A DNA stretch of 64,000 nucleotides from Candidatus Omnitrophota bacterium (GTDB lineage Bacteria; Omnitrophota; Gorgyraeia; Duberdicusellales; 4484-171): the NCBI GenBank assembly GCA_028703535.1, contig JAQVMQ010000001.1, positions 8,818 through 72,817 of the forward strand, read 5' to 3'. The notes under the pieces were generated by a model, which searched no databases, was not told the DNA's origin, and saw nothing but the letters and a program-made list of their open reading frames with translations. The first letter of the stretch is position 1. Every line of letters begins with the position of its first letter. Position numbers and translations under genes: made by a program. Below, in pieces: positions 10,150 through 28,692 of this stretch.

Positions 10150-12705
10150 ATGCAGAACGTAACACCCATGCAGAAACAATATCTGCAAATAAAAGACAAA
10201 TATAAAGATTGCATCCTCTTCTTCCGCCTTGGGGATTTTTATGAAATGTTCTATGACGATGCCGTAACTGCAAGCAAAATACTGGACCTGGTATTAACTT
10301 CACGAGGCACAACAGAAAAAAATAAATACCCTATGTGCGGTATACCTTTTCATGCTGCCGACAATTATATACCCAAACTTATTAAGGCGGGTAAAAAAGT
10401 AGCGATATGTGAACAAGTAGAAAACCCCCAAGATGCCGTCGGAATTGTCAAACGTGACGTTATCAGAATAATTTCATCCGGCACCTATATTGAAGAAAAC
10501 GCGCCCAACACAAAATATATACTATCTTTATCACCGTTCAAAAAATCTATTGGCGTAGCTTTTATCTCTACAGTTGGCGGAAAATTATATGTAAACCGTT
10601 ATTCGTCTAAAACGGATATATCCCAACTAATGTCATGCTTACATATAACTGAATGCATCTTCCCCGAAAGTTTCAATGACGAAGTAAAAAATATTATCAA
10701 AGCGTCATCTATCAGTTCTGATGATATCCTAATGTCACCCCGCCAAGACTGGCATTTCGATTACGAAATGTCAAAAAAATCCTTATTAAACCAATTTGAT
10801 GTACTGAACCTTTCGGGTTTCGGCATTGAAGATAACCCCGAAGCCGTATGTGCTTCCGGTGGACTACTTGAATACCTTAAGTTGATGAACAAACAACCGT
10901 TAAAACATATCTCAGCATTATCCGTATATAATCATTCCGAGTATACTTTTATATCATCAAGCGCCATTAAAGGTCTTGACATATCCGGCCTCTTCAACGT
11001 TATAGATTATACAGTAACCGCAATGGGAAAAAGAACACTGTCTTTTTGGGTACACCATCCGTTAAAAGATACCTCCTCTATAGAAAAACGTCAAAATGCC
11101 GTCAAACTGCTGCATGTCAATAAGAACATATCTGAAAGCATATTAAAAATCCTTAAATCTTTCCCCGACATTGAAAAGAACATATCCCGTCTAAGTTGCG
11201 GATACACACAAGCAAAAGATTTCCTGGCATTACGGAACGCTCTTTTAAAAGTACCTTTACTGCTGCAAAACCTGGCTCACTTAAAAACACAAAATGACCT
11301 TTTATCATTAAACGATATAACGCAACTTCGTTTACTGCTGGCAAGAAGTATCAATCCCGACATGCCATTATCCAATTATGAAGGTAAAGTGATCCAGAAA
11401 GGTTATAATATAGAATTGGATAATATACGAGATATACAAGAGAACGCCTCAAAGCGTTTAAAAGACCTCCAGGCTCGTGAAATAAAAAAAACCGGCATTA
11501 ATTCCCTAAAAATCGGATTTAATAAAATCTTCGGATACTATATTGAAATAACAAAATCGAACCTCTCATCTATAGGCCCTGACTATATACGTAAACAGAC
11601 GCTGGTAAACGCTGAACGATTCATTACTCCCGAACTCAAAGAATTTGAAGAAACAATGCTGACTGCACAGGAAAAAGTCCTTTCGTTAGAAGAAAAACTT
11701 ATAAAGGAAATAAAAAACACGATACTTTCATACTCAAGTCAGCTATCTGAATTGGCTTCATCAATAGCAAATATAGACAGTCTCAATGCTCTAGCCTATC
11801 TATCACATAAAAAAGACTATATATTGCCGAAAATAAATAATTTAACCAGCATAAATATAATCGACGGCCGTCATCCGCTTGTAGAAGATACAGTTGCCGA
11901 CTTTATACCTAACGATACTGTTCTTGACTGTGACGATAACCATCTTTTGTTGATAACAGGTCCTAACATGGCAGGTAAATCTACTTACATACGTCAAACA
12001 GCCTTATTAGTAATACTGGCACAAATAGGAAGCTATATACCCGCAAAAACAGCCGAAATCGGCATTGTAGATAAGATATTCACACGTATAGGCGCACAAG
12101 ACAATATTGACAAAGGACAAAGCACTTTCATGGTCGAAATGAGCGAAACAGCCGAAATAATTAATAATCTGTCATCAAACAGCTTGGTAATCTTAGACGA
12201 AATCGGACGGGGCACAAGCACATTCGACGGATTGAGCCTTGCATGGTCAATAGCTGACTACCTCGGGAAAAAACACGTACGTACACTTTTTGCAACTCAT
12301 TTTCACGAGTTGACCGCTTTGAAAAATGACTTTAAAGGAATGAAGAACTACAATGTATCGGTAAAAGAATGGCAAGACAAGATCATTTTCTTACATAAAA
12401 TTATATCCGGCGCAGCCGACGATAGTTACGGCATATACGTAGCTAAACTTGCCGGCATACCCAAAGAGATAATCAATCACGCTAAACATATTCTTCTGAA
12501 CCTTGAGACATCAGGCAATCTGGAAGATCATATACGAATGAAAAAACATAAAGAAATACAGCCTACGTTATTTGATAAGCACGTACCATCTGCGACAACA
12601 CCTATAATAGATGAGCTTTCTGAACTTGATATAAATACATTGACGCCTCTCGATGCCCTGAATAAAATAACTCAATGGCAAAAAAGGATAAATAATAATG
12701 GCTAA
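10150..12705 (+). CDS. mutS: DNA mismatch repair protein MutS
   Basis: TPMQKQYLQIKDKYKDCILFFRLGDFYEMF N-terminus, Walker A GPNMAGKSTYIRQ, C-terminal HTH region. Confidence 0.95.
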   Translation: MQNVTPMQKQYLQIKDKYKDCILFFRLGDFYEMFYDDAVTASKILDLVLTSRGTTEKNKYPMCGIPFHAADNYIPKLIKAGKKVAICEQVENPQDAVGIVKRDVIRIISSGTYIEENAPNTKYILSLSPFKKSIGVAFISTVGGKLYVNRYSSKTDISQLMSCLHITECIFPESFNDEVKNIIKASSISSDDILMSPRQDWHFDYEMSKKSLLNQFDVLNLSGFGIEDNPEAVCASGGLLEYLKLMNKQPLKHISALSVYNHSEYTFISSSAIKGLDISGLFNVIDYTVTAMGKRTLSFWVHHPLKDTSSIEKRQNAVKLLHVNKNISESILKILKSFPDIEKNISRLSCGYTQAKDFLALRNALLKVPLLLQNLAHLKTQNDLLSLNDITQLRLLLARSINPDMPLSNYEGKVIQKGYNIELDNIRDIQENASKRLKDLQAREIKKTGINSLKIGFNKIFGYYIEITKSNLSSIGPDYIRKQTLVNAERFITPELKEFEETMLTAQEKVLSLEEKLIKEIKNTILSYSSQLSELASSIANIDSLNALAYLSHKKDYILPKINNLTSINIIDGRHPLVEDTVADFIPNDTVLDCDDNHLLLITGPNMAGKSTYIRQTALLVILAQIGSYIPAKTAEIGIVDKIFTRIGAQDNIDKGQSTFMVEMSETAEIINNLSSNSLVILDEIGRGTSTFDGLSLAWSIADYLGKKHVRTLFATHFHELTALKNDFKGMKNYNVSVKEWQDKIIFLHKIISGAADDSYGIYVAKLAGIPKEIINHAKHILLNLETSGNLEDHIRMKKHKEIQPTLFDKHVPSATTPIIDELSELDINTLTPLDALNKITQWQKRINNNG

Positions 12706-26462: not shown

Positions 26463-27830
26463 CTAGAAAGTATGAAAGATTTTAATGAAATCATCACGGA
26501 TTAGCCCATTCCACCTCTTTTGTTTTACATCCGCGTTATTAGACATTCTTACCAATCCTTTCATTGCATTAAAATCAGCATGAACCACCCAATTATACAG
26601 ATCCTTGTATTTGTCCACTCTGAAATTATATTGGCAATTTAAAAAAAAGATGAAGTCATTTGTAAAACAATCAGAAAAATCCATAACGGTCTTCTCCTTA
26701 ATATCATTCCAGGATTCATTATTATCTCTATACTTTTTTTTCCGTTTTTTTAAAAGTTTTGTCAATACAGGAAAAACCTTCCTATAATCGTATCCTGCCG
26801 CAGTTTTAAAAGCATTATGCTTAAGCTCAAAATTCTCCGGCTCATTAAGCAAACTCCCGGTAATCAAATCTATCAATTTAGATTTTGATATTTCAGGCCC
26901 ATTAGTGCCTTGTTGCAAAACTTGTAATAAATAGCCGTTATATTCATCTTTGATCAGCTCTTTGTTCCCGCCCCAGTCGGTAGTAATAACAGGAACTCCG
27001 CAAGCCAAAGCCTCAATATTTACAAAAGGAAAAGTTTCACCCGGCGTGATTGTAGGATTAACAAAAATATCCGACTGAAAAAGCAGTTCATATTTTTCGT
27101 CACCAAACTTCACACCTTCAAAAATAACATGCTTTGATATCTCTAGTCTCTTGACCTTTTCTTCCAATTCATGAACAAAATCGGATTTGCAGTTATCATC
27201 AATGCCTGTCCCGCTTAAAGGACCTATTATCTTTAAAGAAACGTTTTTTACTTTAGAGATAATCCCAGGCATAATGTCAATTAATAAACCGATTCCTTTA
27301 CTCGCAACCAATCGCCCCATGAAAGTTATGGTTTTATCAACCGGCCTGCGACAGATGTCAGATTCTACTACTTTCTGTATTTTTTTATTATCTACAAAAT
27401 TATACATAACATGAACTCTGTTTTTTTCAGAAATATGCAAAAAAGACTGTTTCGCATACTCACACGGCGCATAAATAATATCCTCTTCCCGTAATAACGG
27501 CACAATATATGTATATTTATAAAGCCATGCGAACATACTGTGAAGCTTGACTATAAAAGGAATATTTAACCCGAATTTCTCTCTTATTAAAAAAGCTTGT
27601 ATCAAAAAAGTGAAGCCGTCAACATACAGATAATCAAAGTCATCTTCATTTATTCTTCTAAAAAATTCTTCCAATCTATTCAACCCGCTAAACGATATTA
27701 TTTTGACATTAACATATTCAGAAAAATAATCCAGAAATGTTTTATTAATATTTATTGAACTAATAGATTCTTTTTCTAAAAAATCCAGATAACAAACATT
27801 AATAACATATTTTTCTTTTGTCTTTTCCAT
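26463..27830 (-). CDS. GT4-family glycosyltransferase with about 95-aa C-terminal extension
   Basis: GT-B motif FVNIEALACGVPVITTDWGGNKELI (E-x7-E region); extra C-terminal domain of unknown function. Confidence 0.7.
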   Translation of the reverse strand: MEKTKEKYVINVCYLDFLEKESISSININKTFLDYFSEYVNVKIISFSGLNRLEEFFRRINEDDFDYLYVDGFTFLIQAFLIREKFGLNIPFIVKLHSMFAWLYKYTYIVPLLREEDIIYAPCEYAKQSFLHISEKNRVHVMYNFVDNKKIQKVVESDICRRPVDKTITFMGRLVASKGIGLLIDIMPGIISKVKNVSLKIIGPLSGTGIDDNCKSDFVHELEEKVKRLEISKHVIFEGVKFGDEKYELLFQSDIFVNPTITPGETFPFVNIEALACGVPVITTDWGGNKELIKDEYNGYLLQVLQQGTNGPEISKSKLIDLITGSLLNEPENFELKHNAFKTAAGYDYRKVFPVLTKLLKKRKKKYRDNNESWNDIKEKTVMDFSDCFTNDFIFFLNCQYNFRVDKYKDLYNWVVHADFNAMKGLVRMSNNADVKQKRWNGLIRDDFIKIFHTF

Positions 27831-27885
27831 TTGTTTTAATTGATAAGACCATCACAAAAACTATAATAAGCCATATCAGATAAGG

Positions 27886-28119
27886 TCAGTCTTCAAGAAG
27901 GTATGTCCTGATTTGCTCCGGTTTGAGTCCCGCCTGTCCGGCGCTACGTCCGGCCGCGGCAGTACACAGGACGAAAGTTCTGGTACCAACTGCAGTAAAC
28001 CCATAGCAACGTGCATAAAATGTCGAAAACCAGGCACCGGGCGCAACCATGCATGCGGCTAATATAGCCTGGCTGGTATCAAGCTCTATTTCCGTAACTT
28101 TCGGTTTAGTATACTGCAT
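27886..28119 (-). CDS. Small 77-aa peptide, paralog A (conserved N-terminus, Gly/Ala/Cys-containing variable tail); candidate RiPP/bacteriocin-like precursor
   Basis: Tandem paralog of 28282..28515; 8 synonymous vs 1 nonsynonymous difference over first 32 codons shows purifying selection; locally GC-rich (Ala/Gly/Arg/Pro codons). Confidence 0.55.
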   Translation of the reverse strand: MQYTKPKVTEIELDTSQAILAACMVAPGAWFSTFYARCYGFTAVGTRTFVLCTAAAGRSAGQAGLKPEQIRTYLLED

Positions 28120-28281
28120 ATCTTTTATATTATAGGATTTAAAAAATATTTCAAGTGTGTTTTATAAAAAATATATATTCCAGAAGTATTATCTCCATAT
28201 CTTAAGGTTTTGTCCTAACCTAAAAGTCGATCAAATTATTTATCAAAAAAAATCAAATCGCAATCTTCTTTTGGCGAAAAA

Positions 28282-28515
28282 CTAGGACGGCTTATCCTGA
28301 TTAGCCCCGATTTGACTTGCCCCTGCACCACCGGTACGCCCAACAGGAGAAGTCCTGCAACCCCAAACCGTTCCAGTCCCAACTGCCGTAAAAGCATAGC
28401 ATACTGAAGGTAACAAATAAAACCATGCACCCGGCGCGACCATGCATGCGGCTAATATAGCTTGACTGATATCAAGTTCTATTTCTGTAACTTTGGGTTT
28501 TCTGTATTGTTTCAT
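28282..28515 (-). CDS. Small 77-aa peptide, paralog B (same family as 27886..28119)
   Basis: MKQYRKPKVTEIELDISQAILAACMVAPGAWF conserved N-terminal region, CYAFTAVGTGT conserved mid-segment, divergent tail. Confidence 0.55.
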   Translation of the reverse strand: MKQYRKPKVTEIELDISQAILAACMVAPGAWFYLLPSVCYAFTAVGTGTVWGCRTSPVGRTGGAGASQIGANQDKPS

Positions 28516-28692
28516 TCAACTCATATTACCATATTTTTTGTTTTATCAAATAAGATCTCATTCTAACTGTTTTTTGTGCTAAAAAATTATTTTGCGACAT
28601 TAGAATGCAGCCGGCCTCTTTTTTTTCAAAGAGCTATTAATGCGTAAACACATTGCCCTAATTATACCTTCTAACACTGACAGCTAAGGGCT

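What the first reader, a model, noticed from the sequence alone, without database searches (positions are those of the whole stretch)
26463..28515. Tandem paralogous 77-aa peptides with conserved N-terminus and divergent Gly/Ala/Cys-rich tails, directly upstream of a GT4 glycosyltransferase: candidate modified-peptide (RiPP-like) locus
Two 234-nt genes (28282..28515 and 27886..28119) are tandem duplicates. Over the first 32 codons they differ at 9 codons, 8 synonymously, giving identical MxxxKPKVTEIELD.SQAILAACMVAPGAWF. That is clear purifying selection, so they are real coding genes. A second block (CY.FTAVGT.T) is also conserved. The last about 20 residues diverge completely and are Gly/Ala/Arg/Thr/Pro-rich, which makes this stretch about 60 percent GC in a roughly 33 percent GC genome. 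A conserved leader-like region with a hypervariable Cys-containing C-terminus is the hallmark of ribosomally synthesised modified peptides, bacteriocins or polymorphic toxins. The only adjacent candidate tailoring enzyme is a GT4 glycosyltransferase with an extra about 95-aa C-terminal domain, 55 nt downstream. I do not recognise the peptide family.
Basis: partly seen in the sequence, partly recalled or inferred. Interest (0 to 1): 0.75.

Follow-up and report, generated by a model that had tools for sequence, protein, structure and literature searches.

The report
Orphan RiPP-type precursor peptide pair
Two small tandem genes in an Omnitrophota genome belong to an undescribed family of leader-bearing, three-cysteine, serine-terminated peptides. 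Distant relatives sit beside peptide-modifying enzymes, one relative genome holds at least 65 copies, and the neighbouring glycosyltransferase is probably not their partner.

Summary
The two 77-codon genes are real and coding. Leader dN/dS is about 0.04, and there is no Rfam or tRNA hit.

The "completely divergent tail" is mostly an artefact. pepB in this window has a 1-nt deletion (GGG to GG, about 27937-27939). Intact 75-aa alleles in two other assemblies end ...GANQDIPS, like pepA's ...GANQDKPS.

The peptides belong to an unannotated family with no Pfam, NCBIfam or PDB match. Its named members are all from Omnitrophota. Among 79-83 unique members:
- Y, P (Y+3) and C (Y+20) are invariant.
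- 69/83 have exactly three Cys.
- 82/83 end in Ser (60 PS, 15 GS).
- Conservation collapses after about residue 28.

One MAG (STF1_189) carries at least 65 copies, in arrays of 1-7 set among housekeeping genes. None lies next to a homolog of the window's GT4.

Distant short members with the same leader (hhalign 98.7%) lie inside cassettes encoding PqqD/RRE, a radical-SAM enzyme, an HprK-like kinase, an archaeal-type signal peptidase and a C25 peptidase, one also with an NTP transferase. This resembles the phosphorylated lasso and LPP systems, whose leaders share [Y/W]xxP.

Best reading: these are orphan RRE-dependent RiPP precursors matured in trans. No maturase was found in this window, so that step is inferred.

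The parts
28282..28515 (-). pepA: 77-aa family member with leader, three Cys and C-terminal ...KPS. It is NCBI PHP69_00160 (hypothetical protein, Candidatus Omnitrophica MAG).
   Evidence: ORF. The identical protein occurs in 3 further loci, and a one-residue variant in a fourth. Best family HMM score in the window.
28432..28515 (-). pepA leader-like region (codons 1-28): MKQYRKPKVTEIELDISQAILAACMVAP. It has the YxxPxV motif and the invariant Cys at Y+20.
   Evidence: Positional conservation over 79 members: Y, P and C invariant, and information content collapses after Y+27. hhalign to cassette-linked precursors gives 98.7%. dN/dS is about 0.04.
27886..28119 (-). pepB as it reads in this window: 77 aa with the same leader and Cys framework, but a frameshifted tail (...AGQAGLKPEQIRTYLLED) that lacks the family's terminal Ser.
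   Evidence: The same allele is in L001.
27937..27939 (-). Site of the 1-nt deletion in pepB: CCGGAC here against CCGGGAC in the intact alleles. An A/C substitution lies 3 nt further on.
   Evidence: Alignment of the window with L002 and L001. First post-leader difference located at pepB nt 183. A second intact allele is in L034.
27893..27928 (-). Ancestral pepB tail, out of frame in this window: TQTGANQDIPS plus stop TGA at 27893-27895.
   Evidence: Three-frame translation. Read in the pepA frame, 6 of 13 tail codons differ only synonymously.
28523..28531 (-). Extended -10-like element TGGTAATAT, 7 nt before the pepA ATG. No Shine-Dalgarno sequence is visible, so the transcript may be leaderless. 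This is inference.
   Evidence: Read from the sequence. The same arrangement occurs in 14 of 64 family genes against 1.4% at random positions.
26463..27830 (-). GT4 glycosyltransferase, 455 aa with a C-terminal extension of about 115 aa of unknown fold. It is an adjacent gene and is not shown to belong to the peptide system.
   Evidence: Pfam Glycos_transf_1 9.6e-26. All NCBIfam matches are far below their cut-offs. The nearest PDB sequences are BshA-type GT4s at E about 1e-7. No homolog lies near other family members.

Best explanation
pepA and pepB are precursor peptides of an undescribed RRE-dependent RiPP family.

Proposed mechanism:
1. The first ~28 residues (M-K-x-Y-x-K-P-K-[IV]-x-x-[IV]-x-L-D-x-x-Q-A-[IV]-L-x-x-C) form a leader. 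Its YxxPx[I/V] strand is bound by a PqqD-type RiPP recognition element.
2. That element presents the peptide to a radical-SAM enzyme with a SPASM-like C-terminal Cys cluster. The three framework cysteines are its likely substrates (thioether-type crosslinks; inferred).
3. An HprK-like kinase probably phosphorylates the near-invariant C-terminal Ser, as in paeninodin and pseudomycoidin (inferred).
4. An archaeal-type signal-peptidase-like protease removes the leader, as LppS does in LPPs (inferred).

In this genome the precursors are orphans. Their maturase, if the genome has one, is encoded outside the 64-kb window and acts in trans. This parallels the scattered prochlorosin precursors that one enzyme serves.

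Shown: coding status, family membership, leader homology to cassette-linked precursors, the frameshift, and the lack of a conserved GT partner.
Inferred: every chemical step, and the existence of a maturase in this organism.

The window's pepB allele lacks the terminal Ser and is probably impaired.
For: - Coding status and purifying selection: leader dN 0.035 / dS 0.97.
- The family was defined by an exhaustive phmmer search and a profile search. It has no Pfam, NCBIfam or PDB match.
- Over 79-83 unique members: Y, P (+3) and C (+20) are invariant, 69/83 have exactly 3 Cys, and 82/83 end in Ser.
- The leader is the most conserved part across at least 65 paralogs in one MAG. That implies a common trans-acting binding partner.
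- The cassette-linked member P0025 lies between PqqD + radical SAM and an HprK-like kinase + signal-peptidase-I-like protein. NTP_transf_5 and a C25 propeptide protein lie nearby.
- An independent Anaerolineales cassette has the same gene order. It holds an uncalled ORF with the same leader, C at Y+20, 3 Cys and a terminal Ser.
- A profile built without the short forms finds them at E 3.7e-5 to 5e-3 in 5.8e9 sequences. hhalign of long against short forms gives 98.7%, E 2.6e-16.
- Literature: [Y/W]xxP leaders bind discrete RREs, and the LPP system uses an SpI-like peptidase with an HprK kinase (PMC13381572). HprK-like kinases phosphorylate the C-terminal Ser of paeninodin and pseudomycoidin (PMC6993621).
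Against: - No PqqD, radical-SAM, HprK-like or signal-peptidase-like gene is in the 64-kb window or in the ~200 kb of Omnitrophota loci held.
- All flanks examined are housekeeping genes.
- None of the few taxonomically named hits among the 120 closest homologs of the cassette radical-SAM enzyme is from Omnitrophota.
- Homology between the long Omnitrophota forms and the cassette-linked short forms is demonstrated only over the leader. The long forms have about 20 extra residues and a [ST][VP][KR]G motif that the short forms lack.
- The AF2 model of pepA is uninformative, pLDDT 50.7.
- No modification chemistry was observed.
Confidence: 0.55

Rival explanations
1. The family encodes unmodified small secreted or surface peptides. 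The conserved N-terminus is an export or assembly signal rather than an RRE-bound leader. The multigene arrays give a variable, possibly phase-variable, repertoire used in host, prey or phage interactions.
For: - At least 65 diversified copies sit among housekeeping genes, with no enzyme nearby.
- The pattern is a Cys framework with variable loops.
- Simple-sequence repeats lie in 11/64 upstream regions against 3.6% background. They include C10, (TG)9 and (TTTC)5-6 tracts just upstream of -10-like boxes.
- Members flank a type IV pilin-like gene in L038.
Against: - There is no hydrophobic signal peptide or lipobox context.
- The leader matches the RRE-binding YxxPx[I/V] motif and is homologous to leaders of precursors embedded in PqqD/radical-SAM cassettes.
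- The invariant terminal Ser matches a known kinase target.
Confidence: 0.22
2. One reading: the adjacent GT4, through its extra C-terminal domain, glycosylates pepA and pepB, so this is a compact glycopeptide RiPP locus.
For: - The gap is 55 nt, the strand is the same, and no terminator-like site was found between the genes.
- The arrangement is kept in the two other assemblies of this species that span the peptide-GT junction, L001 and L002.
- Related phosphorylated RiPPs lie in glycosyltransferase-rich loci and can carry hexose on the phosphoserine.
- Other kinds of GT lie next to members in L033 (a GT-C-like protein, weak match) and L035 (a GT2).
Against: - No homolog of this GT4 lies in about 20 other loci with about 70 members.
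- Twenty more flanking proteins are all housekeeping.
- The three GTs seen belong to three unrelated families.
- The C-terminal extension has no detectable RRE similarity: hhalign probability 0.07%, no Pfam domain above threshold.
- Known hexosylation in this RiPP group is done by an NTP-transferase-like enzyme, not a GT4.
Confidence: 0.1
3. In this organism the pair is a decaying remnant. These would be orphan precursors left after loss of the maturase and no longer functional.
For: - pepB is frameshifted in 2 of the 4 assemblies that cover the site.
- Only two copies were seen for this species, and there is no cassette within 64 kb.
Against: - pepA is identical in four of the five loci that carry it. 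The fifth (L034) has one conservative R-to-K change.
- Strong purifying selection acts on both copies, including the tail in its ancestral frame.
- pepA has an intact promoter-like element.
Confidence: 0.1
4. The GC-rich blocks are structured non-coding RNAs or chance ORFs rather than genes.
For: GC of 0.6 in an AT-rich genome is typical of structured RNA.
Against: - There are no Rfam or tRNA hits.
- The synonymous-to-replacement pattern is 10:2 in the leader.
- About 80 protein-level homologs keep conserved residues and end at a conserved terminal Ser.
Confidence: 0.01

Closest known systems
Linear polyphosphorylated peptides (LPP; Popov et al. 2026, PMC13381572)
   Same: - Precursors of 35-200 aa with a conserved N-terminal YxxPx[V] leader and variable remainder.
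[quoted passage not shown] All four have counterparts in the L028 cassette that holds a family member.
   Different: - LPPs are reported only from Bacillota. Their leader continues VLxHQxIxFETxxS, and they are phosphorylated at core Ser3.
- They have no radical-SAM enzyme and no conserved Cys framework.
- Here the leader continues xx[IV]xLDxxQA[IV]LxxC, the conserved Ser is C-terminal, a radical-SAM enzyme and a C25 peptidase are present, and no MsbA-like exporter was seen.
- In the window itself none of the enzymes is present.
Paeninodin / pseudomycoidin-type phosphorylated lasso peptides
   Same: - [Y/W]xxP leader bound by a discrete PqqD-like RRE.
- A C-terminal Ser that an HprK-like kinase phosphorylates.
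- An NTP-transferase-like enzyme that can add hexose to the phosphate.
- The L028 PqqD matches NCBIfam lasso PqqD models weakly.
   Different: - No lasso cyclase or B2 protease was found in any locus.
- The cores are 30-60 aa and lack the ring-forming residue 1 / Asp-Glu 7-9 arrangement.
SynChlorMet (Scm) cassette, NCBIfam TIGR04248-04251
   Same: It combines a PqqD-like protein (ScmD), an HprK-like protein (ScmC) and radical SAM/SPASM enzymes (ScmE/F). The L028 and L040 proteins hit these models, and precomputed Pfam calls PF27840 ScmC for the kinase-like protein.
   Different: All scores are far below the curated cut-offs: ScmD 32 against 100, ScmF 73 against 400, ScmC 17 against 125. There is one radical-SAM gene rather than two. 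The cassette's product is uncharacterised as far as I know, and no paper was found in the library.
Prochlorosins (many scattered lanthipeptide precursors served by one ProcM). This comparison rests on my own knowledge.
   Same: Dozens of precursor genes with a conserved leader and diversified cores are scattered through one genome, away from any enzyme gene.
   Different: The leader family (Nif11-type) and the chemistry (lanthionine by LanM) are different. Here the Cys positions are conserved and no enzyme has yet been found in the same genome.
Sactipeptides / ranthipeptides
   Same: Cys-bearing precursors lie next to an RRE and a peptide-modifying radical SAM enzyme. The L028 enzyme's NCBIfam matches include MftC, StsB, AlbA and PapB.
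   Different: All those matches are below cut-off. Thioether formation is untested, and the leader and core patterns differ from known members.

Membership tests
Unnamed Omnitrophota YxxP-leader / 3-Cys / C-terminal-Ser peptide family (defined here) | Leader with Y, P at Y+3 and Cys at exactly Y+20 | tested here: met
   Invariant in 79/79 unique members, including pepA and pepB.
Unnamed Omnitrophota YxxP-leader / 3-Cys / C-terminal-Ser peptide family (defined here) | C-terminal residue is Ser (usually PS or GS) | tested here: met
   82/83 members. pepA ends KPS. The window's pepB allele fails this because of the frameshift, but the intact alleles in L002 and L034 end IPS.
RRE-dependent RiPP precursor | Leader carrying the [Y/W]xxPx[L/V/I/F/A] RRE-binding motif | tested here: met
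   pepA has YRKPKV and pepB has YTKPKV. The motif is defined in PMC13381572.
RRE-dependent RiPP precursor | RRE protein and modifying enzyme encoded with the precursor, or at least in the same genome | tested here: inconclusive
   Absent from the 64-kb window and from all held Omnitrophota loci. Present next to the distant members P0025 and the L040 ORF. The whole genomes could not be searched.
RRE-dependent RiPP precursor | Post-translationally modified, leader-cleaved product | not testable with these tools
   Needs mass spectrometry.
LPP (linear polyphosphorylated peptides) | Full leader consensus YxxPxVLxHQxIxFETxxS | tested here: not met
   Only YxxPx[V/I] is shared. The remainder is xx[IV]xLDxxQA[IV]LxxC.
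LPP (linear polyphosphorylated peptides) | Core gene set next to the precursor: SpI-like peptidase, RRE, HprK-like kinase, NTP transferase, MsbA-like exporter | tested here: not met
   None is in the window. The L028 cassette has four of the five, plus a radical SAM enzyme.
Lasso peptide | Asn-synthetase-like macrolactam cyclase and B2 cysteine protease; core with ring-forming residue 1 and Asp/Glu at 7-9 | tested here: not met
   No such genes are in any locus examined. The cores are 30-60 aa without that arrangement.
SynChlorMet cassette | Proteins scoring above the NCBIfam equivalog cut-offs for ScmC/D/E/F | tested here: not met
   All scores are far below the cut-offs for the L028 proteins. 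Nothing comparable is in the window.
   No GT4 homolog is in about 20 other loci, and the flanks are housekeeping genes.
GT4 glycosyltransferase (the adjacent gene) | Glycos_transf_1 / GT4 catalytic domains above the Pfam gathering score | tested here: met
   PF00534 90.8 bits, PF13692 85.4 bits, PF13439 29.0 bits. No NCBIfam equivalog cut-off is reached, so its specificity is unknown.

The most novel reading that the evidence does not exclude
Some Omnitrophota maintain a prochlorosin-like combinatorial library. Dozens of separately promoted orphan genes, often apparently leaderless and sometimes preceded by repeat tracts, would encode YxxP-leader peptides. One trans-encoded RRE / radical-SAM / HprK-kinase / signal-peptidase cassette would mature all of them into crosslinked, C-terminally phosphorylated peptides. 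This would be a new RiPP class bridging phosphorylated lasso/LPP systems and radical-SAM thioether peptides, used by ultra-small, possibly host-dependent bacteria.
Probability: 0.3. Interest if true: 0.8.

Novelty: new variant of a known kind. Interest (0 to 1): 0.6.

Why it matters
- It would extend the YxxP/RRE recognition logic of lasso and LPP peptides outside Bacillota, to a radical-SAM-containing cassette that appears widespread. There are 4,119 homolog clusters of the enzyme at E<=1e-25, and the 120 closest all share at least 50% identity.
- It would give Omnitrophota, a phylum with almost no characterised natural products, a very large and easily recognised precursor family.
- The invariant spacing (Y, P+3, C+20, terminal Ser) gives a simple search rule for mining.
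- For this window specifically, the result corrects a tempting but unsupported peptide-plus-glycosyltransferase annotation.

Tried and rejected
- Structured-RNA reading of the GC-rich blocks: no Rfam or tRNA hit. Rejected on the codon-substitution pattern.
- Known protein families: Pfam, NCBIfam and PDB-sequence searches of pepA, pepB and 27 members gave nothing meaningful.
- RCC1-repeat proteins P0003 and P0004 in the phmmer list are spurious 'TVWGC' matches.
- AF2 of pepA with a 20-sequence alignment gave pLDDT 50.7. AF2 of the GT4 without an alignment gave pLDDT 38. Neither was usable, so no fold search was run.
- GT4 C-terminal extension as a fused RRE: hhalign against two PqqD proteins gave probability 0.07%. 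This is not supported, but the test is weak.
- Double-glycine leader, lipobox, type IV pilin signal and lasso core were all considered from the sequence. They were rejected because spacing, hydrophobicity or the required residues do not fit (my reading).
- Maturase proteins in the window or held Omnitrophota loci: none by tblastn, phmmer or an HMM of 119 radical-SAM homologs.
- Using the last homolog search on the L028 radical SAM enzyme to find an Omnitrophota ortholog: the top 120 hits carried few names and none was from Omnitrophota. The cluster look-up added no names.
- The viral contig scan found no relatives.
- Alignments A5 and A8 were too diverse for the search for related loci.
- Literature searches for SynChlorMet, ScmC, and HprK + radical SAM + RiPP found nothing relevant. 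The Haft 2011 paper is not held.
Full report
**1. What is in the window**

Two 234-nt ORFs lie in tandem on the minus strand: pepA at 28282..28515 and pepB at 27886..28119. They are 162 nt apart. A 455-aa GT4 glycosyltransferase gene (26463..27830) follows 55 nt after pepB.

Upstream are cmoB, cmoA and S-adenosylhomocysteinase. Downstream are aconitase, a TonB-dependent receptor, citrate synthase and other housekeeping genes.

The window has 37.8% GC, and the two genes reach 0.63-0.67 locally. No Rfam family reaches threshold anywhere in the window, and there is no tRNA or tmRNA.

The genes are coding:
- Over the 31 aligned leader codons, 12 differ: 10 synonymously and 2 by replacement. NG86 gives dN 0.035 and dS 0.97.
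- The middle third has dN 0.43 and dS about 1.9.

pepA is NCBI PHP69_00160, a hypothetical protein of a Candidatus Omnitrophica MAG, GCA_028711735.1.

**2. The 'divergent tail' is a frameshift**

The DNA alignment stays good to the 3' end. Read one frame over, pepB ends ...GGTQTGANQDIPS*. This matches pepA's ...GASQIGANQDKPS*, and the stop codons coincide.

Assemblies of the same species differ at this site:
- L002 and L034 have CCGGGAC where the window has CCGGAC. They encode an intact 75-aa pepB ending GANQDIPS.
- L001 shares the window's deletion.

So two of the four assemblies that cover the site carry the frameshift. This looks like a population variant, or a repeated assembly error in a short G run. 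It is not sequence hypervariability.

In the ancestral frame, 6 of 13 tail codons differ only synonymously. The tail was therefore under protein-level constraint in both copies.

**3. The family**

An exhaustive phmmer search of 1.84 billion representatives found ten more small proteins of 73-90 aa, plus two spurious RCC1-repeat hits. A profile search of 5.8 billion sequences found 20. Every hit that carries a name is from Candidatus Omnitrophica.

No member matches Pfam or NCBIfam meaningfully, and the family profile finds nothing among PDB sequences.

A scan of species-representative genomes returned 18 loci, all from one MAG: Ca. Omnitrophota STF1_189, GCA_028702395.1. Six-frame HMM searching of those loci shows at least 65 distinct copies in same-strand arrays of one to seven.

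Across 79-83 unique full-length members:
- Tyr, Pro at Y+3 and Cys at exactly Y+20 are invariant.
- The consensus is MKKY-x-KPKIK-x-[VI]-x-LD-x-x-QA[IV]L-x-VC-x-[VI]-GG-x-[YW].
- Information content falls to background after Y+27.
- 69/83 have exactly three Cys.
- The third Cys is usually followed by xx[ST][VPA][KR]G.
- 82/83 end in Ser (60 PS, 15 GS).
- The variable part is rich in Gly, Ser, Ala and Thr.

AF2 with a 20-sequence alignment gives no confident fold, pLDDT 50.7.

**4. Is the glycosyltransferase a partner?**

- No homolog of the window's GT4 occurs among ORFs of at least 100 aa in 20 other loci.
- Flanking genes there include recJ, EF-Tu, recG-type and other helicases, hflX, NAD synthase, yebC, a PRTase, a HAD hydrolase, permeases, ribosomal proteins, PilZ proteins, cation efflux and Fic. 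That is, they are unrelated housekeeping genes.
- Three loci do have some glycosyltransferase next to a member, but from three unrelated families: GT4 here, a weak GT-C-like match in L033, and a GT2 in L035.
- The GT4 reaches no NCBIfam equivalog cut-off. Its nearest solved relatives are BshA-type enzymes at E about 1e-7.
- Its C-terminal extension of about 115 aa has no Pfam domain above threshold. It has no detectable similarity to PqqD/RRE. The single-sequence AF2 model is unusable.
- No terminator-like site separates pepB from the GT gene. Co-transcription cannot be excluded.

**5. Where the family meets enzymes**

The short distant member P0025 is 56 aa...KKTYIKPEIKEVELVAEQAVLAVCKDNAFSTACLPDPCTNAGSFGS. 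It has the same leader, Cys at Y+20, three Cys and a terminal Ser. A profile built without any short forms found it.

In L028 and L029 it lies directly after a PqqD protein and a radical SAM enzyme. It lies directly before a P-loop HprK-like protein and a signal-peptidase-I-like S24/S26 protein. An NTP_transf_5 gene is upstream and a C25-propeptide protein downstream.

NCBIfam matches for these proteins are all below cut-off:
- The PqqD protein matches ScmD and lasso PqqD chaperones.
- The radical SAM enzyme matches MftC over its full length, and StsB, AlbA and PapB. It has a C-terminal Cys cluster of the SPASM/twitch kind, read from the sequence.
- The kinase-like protein matches HprK-related kinase B and ScmC.

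An independent Anaerolineales contig (L040) has the same order: PqqD, radical SAM, a gap, ScmC, a small protein, then a C25 peptidase. The gap holds an uncalled ORF...KPYQKPRLEQVRLVPGQAVLEICKNPIQAGPGFLSNCGPVGAECESALS, with the same features.

Profile-profile comparison of the long Omnitrophota forms with these short forms gives 98.7% probability, E 2.6e-16, over the 29-column leader.

The cassette's radical SAM enzyme has 4,119 homolog clusters at E<=1e-25. The best 120 all share at least 50% identity. Named ones come from Chloroflexota, Anaerolineales and KSB1.

**6. Link to published systems**

Popov et al. 2026 (PMC13381572) describe LPPs:
- The precursors have a YxxPxV... leader bound by a discrete RRE.
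- An archaeal-type signal-peptidase-like LppS removes the leader.
- An HprK-like kinase polyphosphorylates a Ser.
- An uncharacterised NTP transferase is also encoded.
- The clusters are often embedded in capsule or glycosyltransferase-rich loci.

In paeninodin and pseudomycoidin the HprK-like kinase phosphorylates the C-terminal Ser. The NTP-transferase-like PsmN adds hexose to the phosphate (PMC6993621).

The cassette found here has those four functions plus a radical SAM enzyme and a C25 peptidase. The family's two most striking invariants are the YxxP leader and the terminal Ser. They correspond to the RRE and kinase recognition features in those systems. I found no paper describing HprK + radical SAM RiPP clusters.

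**7. Interpretation**

The most economical account is that pepA and pepB are precursors of this RRE-dependent class.
- Extreme conservation of the leader across dozens of paralogs scattered among unrelated genes calls for one common trans-acting partner.
- The only partner seen anywhere for this leader is a PqqD/radical-SAM/kinase/peptidase cassette.

Not shown:
- that this organism has such a cassette (none in the window or in the ~200 kb of Omnitrophota loci held);
- what the radical SAM enzyme does to the three Cys;
- that the terminal Ser is phosphorylated;
- where the leader is cut.

The main rival is an unmodified, variably expressed secreted or surface peptide family. It draws some support from repeat tracts in promoter regions and from the absence of local enzymes.

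It rests on adjacency in one species only.

**8. Verdict**

- The family and its cassette context appear undescribed, but they are a variation on known RRE-dependent, phosphorylated RiPP systems.
- Interest is moderate to high for the family as a whole. It is lower for this two-gene locus taken alone.

Noticed in passing
L010-L027 (GCA_028702395.1, Ca. Omnitrophota STF1_189): One MAG holds at least 65 distinct family genes on 18 contigs, in same-strand arrays of 1-7 inserted between unrelated housekeeping genes. The window's species shows only two copies.
   Followed up: yes
L023 ~1191, L006 ~3672, L013 ~2089, L015 ~8835 (upstream regions): Repeat tracts lie just upstream of -10-like boxes of some family genes: C10, (TG)9 and (TTTC)5-6. 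In L023 the C10 tract sits between a TTGACA and the -10-like box. SSRs occur in 11/64 upstream regions against 3.6% of background windows. Phase-variable expression is possible.
   Followed up: partly
window 28523-28531 and 14 of 64 family genes in related loci: An extended -10-like TGnTAnnnT lies 4-10 nt before the ATG, with no Shine-Dalgarno sequence (background 1.4%). This suggests leaderless transcripts. Other subgroups share conserved upstream blocks, for example ...TGTGTTAATCCTTGTACTTAAAAT... and ...CCTTGGAGCGAAGCGA-ATG.
   Followed up: partly
L030 3912-4190 and L031 2251-2529: This family member has an in-frame TAG two codons after the second Cys. The reading frame continues to a normal ...DPDSAGS end. 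The same TAG occurs in two independent assemblies (ENA and JGI). It may be a pseudogene, readthrough or recoding.
   Followed up: no
L033 153-2594: A family gene is followed 4 nt later by a 521-aa membrane protein with a weak, sub-threshold GT-C (Glyco_transf_22) match and a 128-aa ORF. Next comes a divergent member whose leader has WxxP instead of YxxP. This mirrors the published [Y/W]xxP alternation.
   Followed up: partly
L038 360-1625 (GCA_964414885.1): Two family members flank a type IV pilin-like gene (N_methyl + DUF1559).
   Followed up: no
L028 8142-8864 and L040 7094-10120: Both cassettes end with a gingipain-type C25 peptidase or propeptide protein. The long Omnitrophota peptides have a conserved [KR]-G five or six residues after the third Cys (K/R in 61/79, G in 58/79). 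That could be a cleavage site for an Arg/Lys-specific protease. This is speculative.
   Followed up: no
L003 ~10460-10629 (NCBI JAQTRQ010000005.1): The NCBI contig of this organism breaks off inside pepB and continues with unrelated sequence. Only pepA is therefore annotated there. The tandem paralogs probably caused an assembly break.
   Followed up: no
window ~28245-28255 and ~28548: Homopolymer lengths in the pepA-pepB spacer (T8 against T7) and upstream of pepA differ between this window and L002.
   Followed up: no
L020 7260-9425 and L022 12729-13712: Small PilZ-domain proteins are the only neighbour type that recurs near arrays in STF1_189 (four paralogs at two loci).
   Followed up: no
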